Translations under genes and position numbers: made by a program
The notes under the pieces: generated by a model
The model's database searches: none
Seen by the model: the letters and a program-made list of their open reading frames with translations, nothing else
Told to the model about the DNA's origin: nothing
Source of the DNA: an uncultured Candidatus Saccharibacteria bacterium
GTDB lineage: Bacteria; Patescibacteriota; Minisyncoccia; Phycocordibacterales; Phycocordibacteraceae
Assembly (NCBI GenBank): GCA_964398865.1
Contig: CAYNOO010000001.1
Span: 43,661 to 107,660 of the forward strand
Reading direction: 5' to 3'
Length of the DNA: 64,000 nt
Shown here: piece by piece, positions 1,867-18,046 of the stretch
Layout: the number at the start of each line of letters is the position of its first letter
Numbering within the stretch: position 1 is the stretch's first letter

Positions 1867-2865
1867 TTAGAATTTTTTCTTATTGAAACGAAGTGACGAA
1901 TAGTATGCCGCGACGACGAATACGAGACCGATAGTTCCGGTAATGATTTCAGGAACATGAGTAAGTAAGCTCACGAGCATACTTACTGCAAGCCCGAATA
2001 TCGCCCAGTGTGCGCCATGTTCTAAAAACACGAGCGTATCGAGAGTTCTCTTCCTTACCATGAATATAGTGAGGGAGCGCACAAAATAAGCGCCGATACC
2101 TAACCCCACTGCAATAACCGGCAACGCCGTAGTGAGTGCAAATGCACCGACGACCCCGTCGAGTGAAAACGCGGTGTCGAGAACTTCAAGATAAAAGAAT
2201 AACGCGAGACTGCCCGAGACACCGGTTTTTGCCTCGATGGAAAACGCGCTCGTTATCGCCTCCATTGCAATAAATACAATGACTCCGATAATCCCTGCCG
2301 AGAGCACCTGAATCTGTTCCGCAACAGGAACAAAAAAGGAAACAGCGACTACCGAAATAAGCGCGAGCATAATTTCAAGAGCCTCTATTCTCCCCCAAAG
2401 CGATAGGTACTTCTCGATAAAACGAATCCAGTGCCGCGTTTTGTTACTGTCTAGAAAATATTTCAACGCGACGAGCATGAGAAATACGGCGCCGAACGAA
2501 TGTATAGCAGGAGCAGCGCTCTCTAAAAGCTTTCCGTAATGGGTGGGGTCAAAAAGCGCAATGGTGCCAATAAGCCATGGTGAGATGCCCACGACGAGGG
2601 AAACGATGAGCACGGGCAGGACGATACGCGTACCAAATACTGCAATAAAAATGCCCCACGTAAGAAAACGCCGCTGCCACTTCGCATTCATCTTCGTGAG
2701 CACCTTCGCGTTTACCACCGCGTTGTCGAACGAAAGTGTCACTTCCAAGATGACGAGAAGCACGGCAGTGAATAGCGCTGCTGTTCCGAGATAGTAGTAC
2801 ACGAGCCCAAGCCCCACGACAGAGATGAGCGCCGACACTCCGAAAAATTTTGCAATCGTCTCCAT
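1867..2865 (-). CDS. TerC/DUF475-like integral membrane protein
   Basis: 332 aa, multi-pass membrane protein with paired SFDNAVV and SLDGVVG motifs typical of this family. Confidence 0.45.
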   Translation of the reverse strand: METIAKFFGVSALISVVGLGLVYYYLGTAALFTAVLLVILEVTLSFDNAVVNAKVLTKMNAKWQRRFLTWGIFIAVFGTRIVLPVLIVSLVVGISPWLIGTIALFDPTHYGKLLESAAPAIHSFGAVFLMLVALKYFLDSNKTRHWIRFIEKYLSLWGRIEALEIMLALISVVAVSFFVPVAEQIQVLSAGIIGVIVFIAMEAITSAFSIEAKTGVSGSLALFFYLEVLDTAFSLDGVVGAFALTTALPVIAVGLGIGAYFVRSLTIFMVRKRTLDTLVFLEHGAHWAIFGLAVSMLVSLLTHVPEIITGTIGLVFVVAAYYSSLRFNKKKF

Positions 2866-2893: not shown

Positions 2894-3910
2894 TCAGATT
2901 GCCCCCTTATCCTCAGAAAAATAAATACGGGAGCGAGAAATTCCGAAGGCTTTCAGGCGTGTGATAAGAAAATGCTTCATTTCTTTTTCTCCTTTAAATC
3001 TTTTCACTTTCCCGTCAAGCAATACCGCCCACTGCCCCACGTCCCGCATCACGTCAGTCTTATTGAACACGAGATGCGTGACGCCATTCATGCGCACTGC
3101 CTGCTCTATAAGGTTCAAGTTCATCCAGTTGCACTGTCGCGGACGACCTGTTGTTGAGCCATACTCTTCACCGACGCGGCGGAGTTCCTCAAACACCGGA
3201 TCTTTCGGTTCGAATTTCTTCGTGCCTACATAGGTTTCATACATCTTGGCAACACCCCACACGTGCCGTACTGATTGCGGTGGCAAACCGTTCAAGAGTG
3301 CGCCTGCGACGGTGCAATGGCTAGAAGTGACGAACGGATAGTCTCCCCAATCAATATCAAGTCCGAAACCTTGCGCACCCTCCCCGAGAATGACCACGTC
3401 TTTTTTATTGTAGAATTCTTCGTAGAGATCAATGAGGTAGGGTTTCAAGGCTTTTACATGCTCGGCGCGTACACCGGTGCGGGCATACTTGTCACGATAC
3501 GCGGGACCATTCCCCCTCTTTGTGGTGCCGATTGCGACATCCACTGAATCCTCGTCTCGATGCGCGGCAGTGATAACGTGCGTGTTTTTCGCAACAAAAA
3601 GCTTGCCCTTTGTCTTGATGCCGCCTGCTTCAAGCATCTTTATCTCCTTCAAAAACTGAATGGGATCGATGACACAACCAGGACCTATGATTGAACGAAC
3701 TCCCCAAAAGACGCCCGCAGGAACGTGATGGGTTATGAACTTCTTTCCTTTATGAAAAATAGTATGCCCGGCGTTACAGCCTCCGTTATACCGAAGTACA
3801 TGCGTATATTTTTTCGTCTTACACAAAAAATGAGCTACTTTGCCCTTACCTGAATCGCCGTACTGTAAATCAACAATAATATCAGTCTCCACGTTGCAAA
3901 ATGGTATCAC
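2894..3910 (-). CDS. purA: adenylosuccinate synthetase, short archaeal-type
   Basis: QYGDSGKGK P-loop, GGCNAGHT and TTGRPRQ motifs. Length of 338 aa matches short-form PurA. Confidence 0.88.
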   Translation of the reverse strand: MIPFCNVETDIIVDLQYGDSGKGKVAHFLCKTKKYTHVLRYNGGCNAGHTIFHKGKKFITHHVPAGVFWGVRSIIGPGCVIDPIQFLKEIKMLEAGGIKTKGKLFVAKNTHVITAAHRDEDSVDVAIGTTKRGNGPAYRDKYARTGVRAEHVKALKPYLIDLYEEFYNKKDVVILGEGAQGFGLDIDWGDYPFVTSSHCTVAGALLNGLPPQSVRHVWGVAKMYETYVGTKKFEPKDPVFEELRRVGEEYGSTTGRPRQCNWMNLNLIEQAVRMNGVTHLVFNKTDVMRDVGQWAVLLDGKVKRFKGEKEMKHFLITRLKAFGISRSRIYFSEDKGAI

Positions 3911-5268: not shown

Positions 5269-5964
5269 ATGGCTAAAACATTAAATGCACTTCAGCGAAA
5301 CGTGCTTGCGCTTGCAGCACTCCTCGCCCTTTCACTCATCGGCATACTATTCTTGCTTCCGGGTCAAGCGCACGCGGCATTCCTCGGCGGACAGTTGAGT
5401 CCTGGAGACAGCAATGCTGACGTGACAATATTGCAGACGTACCTTGCATCGGATCCAAGCATCTATCCCGAAGGATTGGTTACAGGATTCTACGGAACTC
5501 TTACCACAGCCGCAGTTGCGCGCTACCAGTGTGCAAACGAAATTGTTTGTACCGGAGACGCGGTAACGACCGGCTATGGTCGCGTCGGACCCAAAACTCT
5601 TGCGTCTATCAACGCACGTCTGAGTGGCGGATCCGTCGGAGCTTCGAGCGTCCCGTTCATCTCCTCGGTCGGCATCAGCACTGCTAAAAATAGCGCTACC
5701 ATCTCATGGAATACAAATGAGGCTACACAGGGTAAGGTGTACTACAGCACTTCCCCAATCTCGCTCAGTGAGGAGAACGGGGTGCCAGGCAGCGTAGGCG
5801 TTAGCGGCAGCATCGCTTTGATGGACTCAGCGTTCCGCTCATCGCAGAGCGTCACCGTGTCTGGTTTGCAAGCCAATACGCTCTACTACTATGTCATCTA
5901 CAGCAATAACGCAGCAGGAGGCGTGAGTGTGACATGGCCAAAGACGTTCACTACGACACCGTAA
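5269..5964 (+). CDS. secreted protein with peptidoglycan-binding (PG_binding_1-like) and fibronectin-III-like domains
   Basis: Signal peptide, then DVTILQTYLASD...GFYGTLTTAAVARYQ (PG-binding-like). The C-terminal part, SATISWNT...GLQANTLYYYVIYS, looks like an FN3 or purple-acid-phosphatase N-terminal domain. Confidence 0.55.
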   Translation: MAKTLNALQRNVLALAALLALSLIGILFLLPGQAHAAFLGGQLSPGDSNADVTILQTYLASDPSIYPEGLVTGFYGTLTTAAVARYQCANEIVCTGDAVTTGYGRVGPKTLASINARLSGGSVGASSVPFISSVGISTAKNSATISWNTNEATQGKVYYSTSPISLSEENGVPGSVGVSGSIALMDSAFRSSQSVTVSGLQANTLYYYVIYSNNAAGGVSVTWPKTFTTTP

Positions 5965-5994
5965 GCAAAAGCTTCTTCAGAAACTAGTGAATAT

Positions 5995-6028
5995 AAACCC
6001 CCGCTCTCACGAGCGGGGGTTTATATTT
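5995..6028 (+). terminator. rho-independent terminator
   Basis: aaacccccgctc tcacga gagcgggggttt hairpin followed by a T-rich tract. Confidence 0.65.
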
Positions 6029-6123
6029 TAGATACAGGGAATTGGGGTCAAGTTCCTAAGCTGGCAATGCTGGGTGCACTGCTCGAAGACTCCAGGTACA
6101 CTTCATTTGCCGCGCAACAAAAA

Positions 6124-6160: not shown

Positions 6161-6302
6161 TGGGTGGCTACAGGGAATCGGCGTCAGCTCACTAAACTCG
6201 CAGACTCGTTAAGTGGCTCCTGCCCGGACTCGACCTTCGATTCTTTCGCTATCGCTTCAGAATCGGCTTCGCGGTCTCCGTCTTTCGATTCCCTGTAGCC
6301 AC
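6161..6302 (-). repeat. tRNA-trailer element copy 1: direct copy of the tRNA-His 3' end, 46-nt conserved core, inverted copy of the tRNA 3' end
   Basis: 6161-6180 is identical to 6351-6370 (the tRNA-His 3' end). 6286-6302 is its perfect reverse complement. The core at 6181-6226 recurs at 10913-10958 and, reverse-complemented, at 17943-17988. Confidence 0.7.
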
Positions 6303-6350
6303 GTCAAAAATATAGTCATCAAACGCGTACGCGTTTTCTTCTTTATTTTT

Positions 6351-6424
6351 GGGTGGCTACAGGGAATCGAACCCTGATCGAGAGCTCCACAAGCTCCAGT
6401 GTTAACCGTTACACCATAGCCACC
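6351..6424 (-). tRNA. tRNA-His (GTG)
   Basis: Manual fold: 8-bp acceptor stem with G-1, anticodon loop TTGTGGA, T-loop GGTTCGATTCC. Confidence 0.8.
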
Positions 6425-7212: not shown

Positions 7213-7935
7213 CTATTCCAGGGCTCCTAGCTCTTTTTCAGCATGAACAAAATCCGCTGGAAGAGGTGCCTCGAAAGTCCGCCGCTCTCCGCTTGGGAGA
7301 GTAAGTGTGAGTGACAGAGCATGGAGTGCAAGACGCTCAAAGCCAAGGGCATGCCCGCGCTTAGGCGCATACAGTGAGTCGCCAACTATAGGATGCTGCA
7401 GCGCTTTGAAATGCACTCGAATCTGATGCATCCTTCCAGTCTTCGGCTTCGCTTCCACGTACGAGAATCCTCCAGCCGCTTTCAATCTAGTCCAAGCAGT
7501 CAATGCATCTCTTAAGGGTGCCTTTGCCCCTCGCTCGGCTGAGCGGCGCCTGAAGTCAGTCTTTGAGCGACCGATGGGAAGCGCAATGATTCCATTTTCT
7601 TCTTTTAACTCCCCCCACAAGAATGCCCGATATGTTTTTTGTATCTCTCGCTCTTTGAATTGTTCTTTTAAAAAGAAAAAAGCCTTTTGATTCTTAGCGA
7701 GCACGATAACCCCTGAGGTTTGCTTATCGAGCCTGTGCACGATGCCAGGTCTATCAACGACCGTGCCGTTGGTGAGCACCAAAGGCTCCCCTACTCCCTG
7801 GGCTTTCGGGACACGCGCCATAAACCAATCAGCGAGAGTTTTTTCTTCTCTCTTGCCATCCCGATGAACCGACATGCCAGCGGGTTTACAGAGCACCATG
7901 ACGTCATCATCTTCAAAAATTATTTGCGGATTCAT
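7213..7935 (-). CDS. RluA-family pseudouridine synthase
   Basis: HRLDKQTSGVIVLAK catalytic-Asp motif, 240 aa. Confidence 0.8.
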   Translation of the reverse strand: MNPQIIFEDDDVMVLCKPAGMSVHRDGKREEKTLADWFMARVPKAQGVGEPLVLTNGTVVDRPGIVHRLDKQTSGVIVLAKNQKAFFFLKEQFKEREIQKTYRAFLWGELKEENGIIALPIGRSKTDFRRRSAERGAKAPLRDALTAWTRLKAAGGFSYVEAKPKTGRMHQIRVHFKALQHPIVGDSLYAPKRGHALGFERLALHALSLTLTLPSGERRTFEAPLPADFVHAEKELGALE

Positions 7936-10180: not shown

Positions 10181-10888
10181 GTGAAAATCACACCGATAAA
10201 GACACGCATCTTCAAGAATGAAGAAAATCTCTCCGAGTTCATTATCGAGCATATAAAAAAGATTCCCGATGAAGCAATACTCGTCATTGCTTCTAAAATC
10301 GTCGCCCTCTCAGAAAACCACCTTGTTCAACATTCGAACGTTGAACAAGGTGGTGAGCGGTTGATAAAAGATGAGAGCGTATGGGCAATTAAATCCGGGA
10401 ACATGTGGCTCACCGAGAAAGACGGAATGATTATGGCGAATGCCGGTATTGATGAATCAAATGCAGATGGAGGAATTATCCTATTGCCTGAAGATAGCTT
10501 CGATTCAGCGAAAGTTTTGCGACAAACGCTCAAAAAGAAATTCGGGTTGAAGCACCTTGGCATCGTAATCACCGATAGCGCACTCATGCCTCTTCGCGCG
10601 GGAGTGGTCGGCGCAGCTCTTGGTTATGCTGGTTTCAAAGGAGTTCGTGACTATCGTGGCAAGAAAGATATTTTCGGACGCACACTCAAGATGTCCCGCA
10701 CTAATATTGCAGACAGTCTCGCAACTGCAGCAACATTGGTTATGGGCGAAGGGGCAGAGCGACAACCGCTCGCCGTTATCTTGGATGCGCCAGTGGAGTT
10801 CAGTGAAAAAATCAACCGGGAAGAGACACAAATCGCAGCGAAAGATGATATCTTTTGGCCGTTGTTGAAAAGAAGAAAAAAGTCTTAA
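10181..10888 (+). CDS. CofE-like F420-0:gamma-glutamyl ligase family protein
   Basis: IASKIVALSE and MANAGIDESN motifs characteristic of the CofE/F420 ligase fold. Confidence 0.5.
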   Translation: MKITPIKTRIFKNEENLSEFIIEHIKKIPDEAILVIASKIVALSENHLVQHSNVEQGGERLIKDESVWAIKSGNMWLTEKDGMIMANAGIDESNADGGIILLPEDSFDSAKVLRQTLKKKFGLKHLGIVITDSALMPLRAGVVGAALGYAGFKGVRDYRGKKDIFGRTLKMSRTNIADSLATAATLVMGEGAERQPLAVILDAPVEFSEKINREETQIAAKDDIFWPLLKRRKKS

Positions 10889-10893
10889 GATTG

Positions 10894-11054
10894 GTGCCCC
10901 CTGCAGGAATCGGCGTCAGCTCACTAAGCTCGCGGACTCGCTAAGTGGCTCCTGCCCGACCTCGCCTCCTTCGGCAAGCTCAGGATGGCTCCGGTTTTCG
11001 ATTCCTGGCGCACGCAAAGCAGTTTGCGTGCTCAGTGTGCACTTGCTTCGCAAG
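10894..11054 (-). repeat. tRNA-trailer element copy 2 (downstream of tRNA-Arg-TCT)
   Basis: 10894-10912 duplicates the tRNA 3' end found at 11055-11073. The conserved core lies at 10913-10958. A partial inverted copy, cgattcctgg, sits at 10999-11008, followed by two perfect hairpins that abut the tRNA. Confidence 0.7.
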
Positions 11055-11126
11055 TGCCCCCTGCAGGAATCGAACCTACATCGACGGCTTAGAAGTCCGC
11101 AGCTCTATCCATTGAGCTAAGGGGGC
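11055..11126 (-). tRNA. tRNA-Arg (TCT)
   Basis: Manual fold: acceptor GCCCCCT/AGGGGGC, canonical anticodon loop CTTCTAA, T-loop GGTTCGATTCC. One A-G mismatch at 31:39. Confidence 0.75.
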
Positions 11127-11523: not shown

Positions 11524-12041
11524 GGTGTTGGTGTTTTCTCCTTTATGAAGTCAACAGCAAATGTCGCAAACCACATTTTATTATCTGACGCTTCAAATGA
11601 TGCCGTTACGAGACGGGACGCTTCTGGAAGAGTTTCAATCGCAGAGGCAAAATGCGAGAGAGCCCCAAGAGAGCCTCGGGCAGAAAAAATAACACGAACG
11701 GGTTCATGGTACGTCCAGCTGGCGGGTAGCACCGAAACGGATCCAATCGTTGCTTGCACGCCCTCGCGCTTCGCAGTAGCTTCAATTGCATCAATGAGAC
11801 GAACTGAATCACTGTCGGGCACTATGAACGTCGCAAGCTCAGTGTTACTTGACGCTGTTTCAGCGATCAATACATCCGCGCGGCGCAGCGCTTGATCGCG
11901 CGCATCGCTAGAAAATGAACTTTCCTTTGCTTTCCCGATAGTCGTGACAAATCCGGAAATGCGCATACTGAGGTATACATAACAGCCAAGTGCTCCGACG
12001 AGAAGAATGAGACCAATTAAGAGCGGGGTGAATTTTTTCAT
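11520..12041 (-). CDS. PilO-like pilus assembly protein (N-terminal TM)
   Basis: 173 aa with an N-terminal TM segment. Operonic with pilM and pilN, with 4-bp overlaps. Confidence 0.4.
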   Translation of the reverse strand: MKKFTPLLIGLILLVGALGCYVYLSMRISGFVTTIGKAKESSFSSDARDQALRRADVLIAETASSNTELATFIVPDSDSVRLIDAIEATAKREGVQATIGSVSVLPASWTYHEPVRVIFSARGSLGALSHFASAIETLPEASRLVTASFEASDNKMWFATFAVDFIKEKTPTP

Positions 12042-12586
12042 AGAGCGTTCGCATCAAACGTGAACGGTATCGAAAAATCCAAATCTGTCCCATTCACCAA
12101 GTCCGATATCGGCACTACCGCTCCACTAAAAAGACTCCCGTCTTCCAGTTTTTTACCGAAGTTCACGAGGGCAACACGCGTCTTCGCTTTTCCAGAAACA
12201 GTGATGTCTCCTGTTTTGGAGCCAGTGAAAGCGAGGGAAATACTCCGGATTTGTATATCGTCCGATACTCCGGTCGTGAGGTTAGAGAGTACGAGTGCGG
12301 TGGTTTGACTGCGCTCGTATTCTTTAAGAAGTGCCAGGCGCTCTTTCAAAAGTGAAACCTGTCGAACAATCCCTGAAGATTGATAGAGTTTTACACTCTC
12401 TGCGGACGCATCCAGTGCACGAACAGCAGCCTTGGCTTCGCTTTCTGCCAGGAAATACGATGGTGTGAGAAAAGCGATACCAACAATGCACACTGCGACC
12501 AGTACGAAAACGGCGGCACTCAAAAGCCCCGTGTAATAACGAACACGAAGCTCTCTCTGTTCTTTTGCTCCGAGAAGATTCACCAT
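12038..12586 (-). CDS. pilN: PilN-like type IV pilus assembly protein
   Basis: MVNLLGAKEQRELRVRYY N-terminus followed by a TM segment, as in PilN. Confidence 0.55.
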   Translation of the reverse strand: MVNLLGAKEQRELRVRYYTGLLSAAVFVLVAVCIVGIAFLTPSYFLAESEAKAAVRALDASAESVKLYQSSGIVRQVSLLKERLALLKEYERSQTTALVLSNLTTGVSDDIQIRSISLAFTGSKTGDITVSGKAKTRVALVNFGKKLEDGSLFSGAVVPISDLVNGTDLDFSIPFTFDANAL

Positions 12587-16228: not shown

Positions 16229-16951
16229 CTAAACTCTAAAGAGCGTTTCTCCAGCTCTTCTTTCTATTTCTTGAATGGATTTGTTGCGATGAATTATCTC
16301 GTCATTACGAACTGATCTGAAAAAATCATATTGATTCTTAGAATCGCGCCCGTACCACTCCAGGTAAGCGCTATGAATTGGTTTTTTCTTAAGCTCCTCC
16401 TCATTAGCACGTAGGAAACGATCGTATTGCTCAAAAGCATGCGCTTCGAACAGGTAGTTTAATTCAAATGCGTACCGCGCATTTAACAAATACAGCCAGT
16501 ATGCTATCCAAAAATAAAGGAAGGCGAAAATCATCGGAATGACCGTATGCAAAAACACGTTTGCTTTTTGTACCTCCTTTGCAAGAGTTGAGATAACAAC
16601 AACATGCATGGTCTCGTTGTCTTTCGCTATGCGTGCAAACTTAGCAAGAGCAGAGAGGCGCATTGCCTTTTCTTCATTGCGATAGAACATCGTAAGAAAT
16701 GTGAAAGCGGCGGAATCCCATGAATGGTAGGGTACGCGAGCAATTACCTCAATTGCTCTGAACTTCAGATACGAAGGTTCTTTCCCATACACGACGTTCG
16801 CACACCCAACGAGTAGGCGCCCGAGGATGCGCGGAAGAAAGTGGGGTTTATAGTCATCATAGGGTCGTTTGTATTCTTGGAGGACTTCGGGGTCATTGAG
16901 CTTAGTGTTCAGATCCTCAAGCGCTTTATCATGATATTCCATAGGGTGCAT
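16229..16951 (-). CDS. alternative oxidase (AOX/PTOX)-like di-iron carboxylate protein
   Basis: Four iron-ligand motifs in AOX order: IEVIARVP (E), NETMHV (ExxH), LFEAHAF (E..H) and RNDEIIH (ExxH). Confidence 0.55.
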   Translation of the reverse strand: MHPMEYHDKALEDLNTKLNDPEVLQEYKRPYDDYKPHFLPRILGRLLVGCANVVYGKEPSYLKFRAIEVIARVPYHSWDSAAFTFLTMFYRNEEKAMRLSALAKFARIAKDNETMHVVVISTLAKEVQKANVFLHTVIPMIFAFLYFWIAYWLYLLNARYAFELNYLFEAHAFEQYDRFLRANEEELKKKPIHSAYLEWYGRDSKNQYDFFRSVRNDEIIHRNKSIQEIERRAGETLFRV

Positions 16952-17749: not shown

Positions 17750-17821
17750 GCTCCCGTCGTTCAATGGATAGGACATATCCTTGCGGAGGATACGATGTGG
17801 GTTCGATTCCTGCCGGGAGCA
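17750..17821 (+). tRNA. tRNA-Arg (GCG anticodon)
   Basis: Manual fold: acceptor GCTCCCG/CGGGAGC, anticodon arm TATCC-TTGCGGA-GGATA. Confidence 0.75.
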
Positions 17822-18007
17822 CAAGTACAAAAACAAGCTGCGCAAGCAGCTATTTTTGTTTGTGCTCCCGGAGCACGACAACTGCTTGTCGTGCGTCAGA
17901 AATCGAAAACCGGAGCCATGTCGCCTTTGCGACAGGCGAGGTCGGGCAGGAGCCACTTAGCGAGTCTTCGAGCTTAGTGAGATGCGCCGATTCCTGCCGG
18001 GAGCACA
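17822..18007 (+). repeat. tRNA-trailer element copy 3 (downstream of tRNA-Arg-GCG)
   Basis: Partial inverted copy of the tRNA 3' end at 17860-17871. Hairpin at 17872-17894. Conserved core (reverse-complement orientation) at 17943-17988. Direct 19-nt copy of the tRNA 3' end at 17989-18007. Confidence 0.7.
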
Positions 18008-18013
18008 AATACA

Positions 18014-18046
18014 AAAAACTCCAGACAATTGTCTGGAGTTTTTTGA
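18014..18046. terminator. bidirectional rho-independent terminator (tRNA-Arg/element and rpsT)
   Basis: ctccagaca-attg-tctggag stem flanked by an A6 run and a T6 run. Confidence 0.75.

What the first reader, a model, noticed from the sequence alone, without database searches (positions are those of the whole stretch)
10894..11054. Copy 2 of the tRNA-trailer element, with additional perfect hairpins abutting tRNA-Arg(TCT)
Seen directly: same core (10913-10958) and a 19-nt direct copy of the tRNA 3' end (10894-10912). The inverted copy is reduced to cgattcctgg (10999-11008). Between it and the tRNA there are two perfect hairpins: gcacgcaaa-gcagt-ttgcgtgc at 11010-11031 and gcacttgc-ttc-gcaagtgc at 11037-11056. 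The second hairpin ends exactly at the tRNA 3' terminus. Inference: this looks like a processed or structured trailer, and it shows the family tolerates variable inserts between the inverted copy and the tRNA.
Basis: seen in the sequence. Interest (0 to 1): 0.6.

Follow-up and report, generated by a model that had tools for sequence, protein, structure and literature searches.

The report
Mini mobile element inside tRNA gene
The "trailer" behind tRNA-Arg(TCT) is a roughly 160-bp mobile insertion lodged in the T-loop of the tRNA gene; it supplies a replacement tRNA 3' end and carries a conserved folded module, and it belongs to a large, apparently undescribed family in Patescibacteria (CPR) genomes.

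Summary
The interpretation as a processed tRNA trailer is only partly right.

- **What is there.** 10913-11072 is a 160-bp insertion between T55 and C56 of tRNA-Arg(TCT). It brings its own copy of the last 19 nt of the tRNA (11054-11072). The native 3' end, with encoded CCA, now lies at 10892-10912, 3 nt from the stop codon of the convergent F420-ligase gene.
- **Internal parts.** It holds a junction hairpin, an inverted copy of the tRNA 3' part split by a conserved 9-bp hairpin (11010-11031), and an ~86-nt core.
- **Fold.** The inverted copy, the core and the adjoining tRNA segment form a three-way junction supported by covariation.
- **Family.** There are 3 copies in the window and 85 model hits in about 500 kb of Patescibacteria loci. 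They sit at 15 or more tRNA species and at the 3' ends of fusA and rpsI.
- **Mobility.** Orthologous tRNA-Arg(TCT) sites in relatives are empty, or carry this core family or a different one.
- **Not found.** There is no linked protein, no Rfam, phage or plasmid match, and no paper.

Best reading: a non-autonomous integrative element whose folded end acts as its recombination site or guide. The enzyme, and whether the fold is RNA or ssDNA, are unknown.

The parts
11054..11126 (-). tRNA-Arg(TCT), complete and canonical. Its last 19 nt (11054-11072) are the element-borne replacement 3' segment.
   Evidence: ARAGORN; Rfam tRNA at 64.4 bits; model.
11054..11072 (-). A_el: proximal copy of the tRNA 3' part (C56 to A73, plus 1 nt). 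It is the left end of the inserted element and has no encoded CCA.
   Evidence: 19-nt perfect direct repeat. In 24 of 31 family members the repeat ends 0 to +2 nt past the tRNA end.
11039..11057 (-). Junction hairpin X (8 bp, 3-nt loop): the centre of the palindrome between the tRNA end plus 5 nt and its inverted copy. It has no T-run in this copy.
   Evidence: Sequence; predicted in the MFE fold; not called terminator-like.
11033..11046 (-). Distal half of the inverted copy (complement of the acceptor 3' strand and 5 nt of trailer), 12 of 14 matching.
11010..11031 (-). P0: conserved 9-bp hairpin with a CUGC tetraloop, inserted in the inverted copy exactly at the acceptor/T-stem boundary.
   Evidence: 24 of 67 copies have a perfect 9-bp/4-nt hairpin 45-52 nt from the core. 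All 9 pairs covary. Compensatory CA/TG versus AC/GT changes separate it from window copy 3.
10999..11008 (-). A' (proximal half of the inverted copy): CCAGGAAUCG, antisense to tRNA positions 56-65. It is the 5' strand of helix P1.
   Evidence: P1 is 86% paired over 67 copies, and 8 of 8 pairs show changes on both sides.
10913..10998 (-). Conserved core: junction AAA; P2 (10959-10995, with a GGA/GA internal loop and a variable hairpin); GGGCAGG; P3 (10918-10950, AGCCACUUAG...CUUAGUGAGCU); GACGC at the 3' boundary.
   Evidence: Covariance model R1 scores this copy at 115.9 bits.
10892..10912 (-). Displaced native 3' end of tRNA-Arg(TCT) (C56 to A73 plus encoded CCA). It is the 3' strand of P1 and lies 3 nt from the stop codon (10886-10888) of the convergent F420-ligase gene.
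   Evidence: The empty orthologous sites L074 and L075 show the tRNA directly abutting this flank.
6161..6369 (-). Copy 1, at tRNA-His(GTG): A_el 6350-6369, 17-nt inverted copy 6286-6302, core 6181-6285, displaced 3' end 6161-6180.
   Evidence: R1 at 95.6 bits.
17804..18017 (+). Copy 3, at tRNA-Arg(GCG): A_el plus trailer 17804-17833, terminator-like hairpin 17836-17851, inverted copy 17852-17871 and 17895-17905 split by P0 (17873-17894), core 17906-17987, displaced 3' end 17988-18017, followed by the native terminator 18012-18045.
   Evidence: R1 at 113.7 bits.

Best explanation
The segment is one integrated copy of a small (about 125-190 bp), protein-less mobile element family that targets the T-loop of tRNA genes in Patescibacteria.

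**Shown**
- The element sits between T55 and C56.
- Its left end is its own copy of the tRNA's last ~19 nt, so the gene stays intact. The native 3' end is pushed downstream and decays.
- Its right end is a conserved ~90-nt core.
- Just upstream of the core lies an inverted copy of the same tRNA segment, split by a conserved hairpin.
- The inverted copy, the core and the adjoining tRNA segment fold as a three-way junction (P1, P2, P3), with the insertion junction at the base of P1.
- Orthologous sites are empty or filled.
- Serial insertions build arrays.

**Inferred**
- The unit A_el - hairpin - A' - core moves as a whole, probably through a circular or single-stranded form in which A' pairs with A_el.
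- That pairing would present a duplex mimic of the tRNA-gene target next to the structured core. This would be a folded att site like integron attC or CTX-phage attP, or else an RNA guide.
- A recombinase encoded elsewhere in the genome would exchange strands at T55|C56.
- Each element lineage is matched to one tRNA, or to the 3' end of fusA or rpsI, because only insertions that restore the gene survive.
For: - **Empty and filled sites.** At the orthologous F420-ligase/tRNA-Arg(TCT) locus, L074 and L075 are empty, L073 and L076 carry a different core with the same architecture, and L035, L003 and the window carry this core.
- **Repeat boundaries.** The repeat always starts at C56 after GGTT. 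It ends 0 to +2 nt after the tRNA end in 24 of 31 copies.
- **Native distal copy.** The distal copy has the native context: an encoded CCA, or the native terminator.
- **Arrays.** Arrays hold divergent units, each with its own 3'-end variant and a matching inverted copy. Examples are the L032 fusA C-termini, L036, L029, L038, and an older decayed copy at window ~6030-6100.
- **Which copy A' follows.** When the proximal and distal copies differ, A' matches the proximal one in 4 of 4 informative cases: L004, L022, L047 and L063.
- **Cargo.** Two versions carry cargo: L049 at 3.2 kb, with an HNH homing endonuclease, and L038 at 1.7 kb.
- **Covariation.** P1 is 86% paired, with 8 of 8 pairs changed on both sides. 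P2 is 94% paired, with 36 double changes at one pair. P0 covaries at all 9 pairs.
- **Strand.** The tRNA-sense strand folds better in 65 of 67 copies. For this copy z is -3.8 against -1.1.
- **Spread.** The family occurs at 15 or more tRNA species, with 85 model hits in about 500 kb. It was found only in Patescibacteria genomes.
Against: - **No enzyme.** No recombinase, transposase or reverse transcriptase is linked to any copy, so the enzymatic step is conjecture.
- **No free form.** No excised or circular form was seen.
- **RNA or DNA unresolved.** G-U pairs (42) barely outnumber A-C pairs (35), so the data do not separate an RNA fold from an ssDNA fold.
- **Fixed-length duplication not excluded for tRNA sites.** A ~19-21-bp target duplication would also end at the tRNA terminus. 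That reading is excluded only by the fusA arrays and the A'-proximal match.
- **Retargeting unexplained.** It is unclear how a lineage acquires a matching 3' end and inverted copy for a new target.
- **Possible assembly artefacts.** Some odd loci (L023, L004) could be chimeric metagenome assemblies.
- **Ascertainment.** The invariance of P3 was imposed by the search pattern.
Confidence: 0.6

Rival explanations
1. It is a host-serving, tRNA-linked structured RNA, the reader's "structured trailer". The segment would be co-transcribed with or just after the tRNA. It would fold into a tRNA-like body, with an acceptor-like helix from the inverted copy and the distal 3' segment, and P0 in place of the D and anticodon arms. 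RNase P and RNase Z would trim it, and it would act as a stable ncRNA such as a decoy or a processing or termination module.
For: - The tRNA-sense strand folds better in 65 of 67 copies.
- P0 sits exactly at the acceptor/T-stem boundary in two unrelated core families.
- The junction nucleotides are strongly conserved.
- GNRA-like loops and tandem G-A motifs are present.
- The distal segment of this copy ends in CCA.
- Copies are abundant: 3 of 7 tRNA genes in the window carry one.
Against: - Orthologous sites are empty or hold a different core family.
- Serial arrays contain decaying older copies.
- The same core sits at the 3' ends of fusA and rpsI.
- Terminators often separate the tRNA from the core.
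- A' follows the proximal copy, not the distal one.
- There is no Rfam match.
Confidence: 0.15
2. It is a conventional miniature transposon (MITE-like). A transposase acting in trans would make staggered cuts about 19-21 bp apart, and the tRNA 3'-end repeat would be a target-site duplication.
For: - It is small, protein-less and multicopy.
- Direct repeats flank the insert.
- Repeat length clusters at 19-21 nt.
Against: - It has no terminal inverted repeats of its own.
- Repeat length ranges from 12 to 45 nt.
- Units in the fusA arrays carry different C-terminal coding variants (L032).
- The inverted copy of the target lies inside the element, which a target-site duplication does not produce.
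- A' matches the proximal repeat when the two differ.
Confidence: 0.08
3. It is an intron-like element in the T-loop. The RNA between the two repeats would be removed, either by self-cleavage and ligation or by host enzymes, joining U55 to the distal C56. The proximal copy would be a safeguard.
For: - In L003 the proximal 3' end is missing and the tRNA is interrupted.
- P1 pairs an internal guide with the 3' "exon".
- The three-way junction has conserved unpaired nucleotides.
Against: - The tRNA is complete upstream in nearly all copies.
- L003 looks like a deletion derivative of an L035-type copy.
- Terminators lie inside the would-be intron.
- No group I, group II or known self-cleaving ribozyme matched, even at E up to 10.
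- No bulge-helix-bulge motif is evident.
- The protein-gene targets include their own stop codon in the proximal copy.
Confidence: 0.07
4. The copies are scars: attL-attR remnants left after most of a larger integrated prophage or island was deleted.
For: - The geometry is that of tRNA-gene integration (T-loop sublocation, repeat equal to the tRNA remainder).
- Two larger versions with cargo exist.
Against: - More than 80 copies share the same compact size and architecture.
- Covariation shows ongoing selection on structure.
- There is no match in IMG/VR, the phage collection or the plasmid collection.
Confidence: 0.05

Closest known systems
Integrase-mediated genomic islands and prophages integrated in tRNA genes, T-loop sublocation class
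   Same: - Insertion lies within the T-loop.
- The flanking direct repeat equals the remainder of the tRNA.
- The element supplies the functional 3' end and the native one is displaced.
- Tandem arrays form at one tRNA.
- Related genomes differ in presence or absence.
   Different: - It is 125-190 bp, against kilobases.
- It has no integrase or any other gene.
- It carries an internal antisense copy of the att segment and a conserved, covarying three-way-junction module.
- The same core also occurs at the 3' ends of fusA and rpsI.
Folded single-strand recombination sites: integron attC and CTX-phage attP(+) used by IntI and XerCD (established knowledge; the attC/ssDNA point is as discussed in PMC5737381)
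   Same: - Imperfect inverted repeats pair around an intervening structured region.
- The crossover lies at the foot of the stem.
- Structure is conserved through covariation.
- Units stack in arrays.
- After integration, an inverted copy of the site sits about 90 nt inside one junction.
   Different: - The target is a tRNA T-loop or a gene 3' end, not attI or dif.
- The intervening core is strongly conserved in sequence.
- No IntI or Xer dependence has been shown.
- The pairing arms are target-specific and up to ~30 nt long.
Guide RNAs encoded at transposon ends: IS110/IS1111 bridge or seek RNAs, and the omega RNAs of IS200/IS605 TnpB (established knowledge)
   Same: - A structured non-coding module of about 100-180 nt abuts the element boundary.
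- It contains a segment that base-pairs with the target sequence.
   Different: - No recombinase or nuclease gene lies in or beside the element.
- Only the right side of the target is matched.
- The element duplicates the target's 3' part.
- There is no Rfam hit to those RNAs.
MITEs and CIMEs (non-autonomous derivatives of transposons or integrative elements)
   Same: They are short, multicopy, protein-less and mobilised in trans.
   Different: - It has no terminal inverted repeats and no fixed target-site duplication (unlike MITEs).
- It is not a random deletion product (unlike CIMEs).
- It has a conserved folded core.
tRNA introns (bacterial group I in the anticodon loop; archaeal bulge-helix-bulge introns, including T-loop positions)
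   Same: It lies inside a tRNA gene, and an internal segment pairs with exon sequence.
   Different: - The tRNA is not interrupted.
- It has no group I core and no bulge-helix-bulge motif.
- Terminators lie inside the element.

Membership tests
tRNA-gene integrative element (tyrosine-integrase island or prophage) | Insertion in the 3' part of a tRNA gene, with flanking direct repeats equal to the tRNA remainder | tested here: met
   The repeat starts at C56 in the tRNA-linked copies with a scored repeat, and ends 0 to +2 nt past the tRNA end in 24 of 31.
tRNA-gene integrative element (tyrosine-integrase island or prophage) | The element encodes its own integrase next to one att site | tested here: not met
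   The element holds no ORF. No recurrent neighbouring protein family was found. Pfam found no recombinase among the window neighbours or in the two cargo versions.
tRNA-gene integrative element (tyrosine-integrase island or prophage) | Presence/absence polymorphism at orthologous sites | tested here: met
   L074 and L075 are empty. L073 and L076 carry another core family. The window, L035 and L003 carry this core.
MITE | Terminal inverted repeats of the element itself and a target-site duplication of fixed length | tested here: not met
   The ends (A_el and GACGC) are not inverted repeats. The repeat is 12-45 nt long, and array units carry different variants.
tRNA intron (group I or archaeal bulge-helix-bulge) | It interrupts the mature tRNA sequence and has a group I core or a bulge-helix-bulge motif at the junctions | tested here: not met
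   A complete tRNA lies upstream. No intron or ribozyme family matched at E up to 10. L003, the only interrupted case, looks like a deletion.
Folded ssDNA att site (attC or CTX attP type) | Two inverted arms pair around a variable or structured region, with the crossover at the stem foot and structure conserved by covariation | tested here: met
   P1 (A' with A) is 86% paired, with 8 of 8 pairs changed on both sides. The junction lies at the base of P1.
Folded ssDNA att site (attC or CTX attP type) | Recombination by IntI or XerCD on one folded DNA strand | not testable with these tools
   No enzyme has been identified. The G-U versus A-C counts (42 versus 35) do not separate RNA from DNA.
Any Rfam RNA family (release 15) | Covariance-model match at or near the gathering score | tested here: not met
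   Only tRNA matched. The other hits were spurious and far below threshold.
Intrinsic terminator (for hairpin 2 at 11039-11057) | G+C-rich hairpin followed by a T-run | tested here: not met
   It was not called in copy 2. The equivalent hairpin of copy 3 (17836-17851) and those of many other copies were called, or have T-runs.

The most novel reading that the evidence does not exclude
The ~170-nt unit may be a self-directed mobile RNA or ssDNA. Excised as a rod-like circle (A_el paired with A', capped by hairpin X at one end and the core at the other), it would use its own antisense segment to choose the tRNA T-loop. The conserved three-way junction would either catalyse cleavage and ligation at U55|C56 or serve as a bridge-type guide for a host recombinase. 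That would make it a new class of RNA-guided or ribozyme-like insertion element, and among the smallest mobile units known.
Probability: 0.15. Interest if true: 0.9.

Novelty: new variant of a known kind. Interest (0 to 1): 0.66.

Why it matters
- **Scale.** If correct, many tRNA genes in Patescibacteria, a large part of bacterial diversity with tiny genomes, carry unannotated miniature integrative elements. In this window 3 of 7 tRNA genes do.
- **Annotation.** The elements rebuild the 3' end of the gene. This matters for tRNA annotation, because duplicated 3' ends and occasional interrupted genes result.
- **Assembly.** Contigs break or become chimeric at the conserved core.
- **Mobile-element biology.** The element carries a structured module containing an antisense copy of its own target. 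That suggests either a folded-strand att site outside integrons and Xer systems, or a new guide-RNA mechanism.
- **Testability.** Both readings can be tested with the sequences defined here.

Tried and rejected
- **Rfam.** The gathering-threshold scan of the whole window and the E<=10 scan of the element found only tRNA.
- **Literature.** Five full-text searches found no description of the element.
- **Viral, phage and plasmid collections.** IMG/VR pattern scans and phage and plasmid BLAST gave nothing.
- **Linked enzyme.**
  - The window neighbours are housekeeping genes.
  - Clustering 226 neighbouring ORFs from 70 loci gave no recurrent mobile-element protein.
  - The HNH endonuclease and the other L049 cargo proteins occur in no other locus.
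- **Fourth copy.** The weak fourth model hit at 2512-2693 lies inside a DUF475/TerC membrane-protein ORF and lacks P3, so it is a false positive.
- **Known ribozymes.** By inspection the element fits neither the hammerhead topology nor group II domain V. The junction strands and bulge pattern do not match, and Rfam found nothing.
- **Small ORF.** An AUG is common in P2 but not conserved, and the frame is broken by variable hairpins.
- **Retroviral-type primer-binding site.** In this copy the inverted copy complements the gene trailer, not the mature CCA end.
- **Wobble-pair strand test.** It was inconclusive.
- **Neighbour look-up.** The look-up of encoding contigs on the window's own protein returned only a 1.4-kb contig that breaks inside the element.

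Full report
**1. Observation**

tRNA-Arg(TCT) lies at 11054-11126 on the minus strand (ARAGORN; Rfam 64.4 bits).
- The 46-nt core at 10913-10958 recurs at 6181-6226 with 3 mismatches, where none is expected by chance. It recurs inverted at 17934-17984.
- The 19-nt repeat occupies 10894-10912 and 11054-11072.
- Hairpin 1 is perfect, with a 9-bp stem and a 4-nt loop at 11010-11031.

Three details need correcting.
- Hairpin 2 lies at 11039-11057. It overlaps the last 3-4 nt of the tRNA rather than ending exactly at its terminus.
- The inverted copy is complete, not reduced. Its second half (11033-11046, 12 of 14 matching) sits on the other side of hairpin 1.
- The distal repeat extends to 10892 and encodes CCA. 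The proximal copy does not.

**2. Anatomy, read in tRNA sense**

All three window copies share one plan. They lie at tRNA-His at 6161-6369 (minus), tRNA-Arg(TCT), and tRNA-Arg(GCG) at 17804-18017 (plus). The order of parts is:
1. a complete tRNA whose last ~19 nt, from T-loop C56, form segment A;
2. a short variable hairpin X;
3. an inverted copy of A, called A', which in copies 2 and 3 is split by hairpin P0 exactly at the acceptor/T-stem boundary;
4. AAA(G);
5. helix P2, with a GGA/GA internal loop and a variable tip;
6. GGGCAGG;
7. helix P3 (AGCCACUUAG...CUUAGUGAGCU);
8. GACGC;
9. a second, direct copy of A.

**3. A large family**
- One scan of GTDB species genomes found the core in three Patescibacteria MAGs.
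- One metagenome scan found 68 more loci.
- A covariance model built from 67 distinct copies finds exactly three copies in the window. It finds 85 in about 500 kb of fetched loci, including tandem arrays.
- In most copies a complete tRNA lies just upstream, and the repeat abuts the core. At least 15 tRNA species are used.
- The repeat always starts at C56, after GGTT. It ends 0 to +2 nt past the tRNA end in 24 of 31 cases.
- A subgroup sits at the 3' ends of fusA (L015, L032, L059), at rpsI (L008), or immediately after tRNAs. There the repeat covers the last codons and the stop codon.
- Rfam, IMG/VR, the phage and plasmid collections and five literature searches gave nothing.

**4. It is an insertion, and the distal copy is the native end**

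The window locus (Vut_1, DHFR, F420-ligase, convergent tRNA-Arg(TCT), pil genes) is syntenic in relatives whose F420-ligase is 67-73% identical.
- L074 has an identical tRNA and L075 a related one. In both, the tRNA abuts the flank directly, so these sites are empty.
- L073 and L076 carry an unrelated core with the same left-hand architecture: terminator palindrome, complement of the acceptor strand, a hairpin, then the complement of the T-stem and T-loop.
- L035 and L003 carry another subtype of the present core.

In the window the distal copy has the native context. It encodes CCA and lies 3 nt from the F420-ligase stop codon. In copies 1 and 3 the distal copy is followed by the native terminator.

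Arrays support serial insertion.
- L032 holds two units with different fusA C-terminal variants, each with its own matching inverted copy.
- L036, L029 and L038 stack different core families.
- Downstream of window copy 1 lies an older, decayed core (~6030-6100), then a degenerate tRNA-His 3' end and the real terminator.

When the proximal and distal copies differ (L004, L022, L047, L063), A' matches the proximal one. So A (proximal), X, A' and the core belong together as the inserted unit, and the distal copy is a relic.

Two copies carry cargo between the proximal A and A'. L049 holds 3.2 kb including an HNH homing endonuclease. L038 holds 1.7 kb. In those two the palindrome is pulled apart. 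This shows that the palindrome in the minimal elements is simply A and A' lying side by side.

**5. Structure**
- P1 (A' with the A that follows the core) is 86% paired over 67 copies, and all 8 pairs show changes on both sides.
- P2 is 94% paired, with 36 double changes at its middle pair. Shuffled and slid controls score far lower.
- P3 is invariant, but that was imposed by the search pattern.
The loop is mostly CUGC and all nine pairs covary. That set was selected for being perfect hairpins.
- Between window copies 2 and 3, P0 differs by two compensatory pairs.
- The tRNA-sense strand folds better than its complement in 65 of 67 copies. For this copy z is -3.8 against -1.1.
- G-U pairs (42) barely outnumber A-C pairs (35), so RNA and single-stranded DNA cannot be told apart. 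The same caveat was raised for attC-like motifs in PMC5737381.

**6. Mechanism**

The following are shown:
- a T-loop-specific insertion that replaces the tRNA 3' end;
- presence/absence polymorphism at orthologous sites;
- serial arrays;
- an internal antisense copy of the replaced segment, which co-varies with the element's own copy;
- a covarying three-way junction with the insertion junction at its foot.

The following are inferred.
- The unit moves through a circular or single-stranded intermediate in which A' pairs with its own A.
- This would create a duplex copy of the target next to the core. It would be a folded att site comparable to attC or CTX attP, or alternatively a guide RNA.
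- A recombinase encoded elsewhere would exchange strands at T55|C56.

No enzyme is linked to any copy, so this step is the weakest.

**7. Rivals**
- **A host ncRNA or structured trailer.** This fits the strand bias and the tRNA-like placement of P0. It does not fit the empty sites, the arrays, the protein-gene targets or the terminators between the tRNA and the core.
- **A MITE with a target-site duplication.** This fails on repeat-length variation (12-45 nt), on the divergent repeats in arrays, and on the inverted target copy inside the element.
- **A T-loop intron.** This rests only on L003, which looks like a deletion of an L035-type copy. No intron or ribozyme signature was found.
- **Deletion scars of larger islands.** This does not explain more than 80 compact copies under structural selection.

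**8. Verdict**

The finding is real, and more interesting than a trailer. It is a previously unannotated family of miniature elements targeting tRNA T-loops in Patescibacteria.
- I rate it a new variant of a known kind: tRNA-gene integrative elements with a folded att site or guide module.
- Confidence is 0.6 in the mobile-element reading as stated.
- I give about 0.15 to the more radical reading that the ~170-nt unit itself directs or catalyses its insertion.

Noticed in passing
window 6030-6110 (minus strand), with 5990-6027: An older, decayed copy of the core (…GCCAGCTTAGGAACTTGACCCC|AATTCCCTGTATC) lies downstream of copy 1. It is followed by a degenerate tRNA-His 3' end and the true terminator palindrome, which points to serial insertion at tRNA-His.
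   Followed up: partly
L073 3223-3976 and L076 3193-3532: At the orthologous tRNA-Arg(TCT) site there is a different core family ("type C": GCAGGAATCGAAGACC…GTGTACAGCTCCTGTAAGGAG|A). It has the same left-hand architecture, including a hairpin inserted at the acceptor/T-stem boundary of the inverted copy. Other divergent cores occur in L038 (after tRNA-Asp), L029 and L036.
   Followed up: partly
L003 2593-2775: tRNA-Arg(TCT) lacks its proximal 3' end, so the gene is interrupted in the T-loop by the element and ARAGORN finds no tRNA. It looks like a deletion within the palindrome of an L035-type copy. Whether that genome has another tRNA-Arg(TCT) is unknown.
   Followed up: partly
L015 ~11860-12060; L032 ~7560-7830; L059; L008 ~5390-5560: The same core is inserted at the 3' ends of fusA (EF-G) and rpsI (S9), with the last codons and the stop codon duplicated. 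L032 has two tandem units encoding different EF-G C-termini.
   Followed up: partly
L049 1063-4361: A 3.2-kb cargo-bearing version lies in tRNA-Ser(GCT). It holds an HNH endonuclease with homing-endonuclease-associated repeats (1899-2582), two unknown proteins, and an internal ~65-nt repeat (1216-1300 and 3388-3450).
   Followed up: partly
L060 ~7380-7400; also L008, L015, L032, L033, L046: In the non-T-loop subgroup the tip of P2 carries TATAAT-like loops (L060: TGTATAAT, an extended -10 sequence). These could be outward-facing promoters. Not tested.
   Followed up: no
L023 and L004: In these copies the distal repeat belongs to a different tRNA or tRNA allele than the proximal one. This could reflect recombination between elements, or chimeric metagenome assembly across the conserved core. 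The window's own protein look-up returned a contig that breaks inside the element (L072).
   Followed up: no
window 16229-16951 (minus strand): This ORF matches Pfam AOX (alternative oxidase) at E = 9e-11. That is unusual for a Patescibacteria genome, which normally lacks respiratory components.
   Followed up: no
window 2512-2693: A weak covariance-model hit (17.8 bits) lies inside a DUF475/TerC membrane-protein ORF. It lacks P3 and is judged a false positive.
   Followed up: yes
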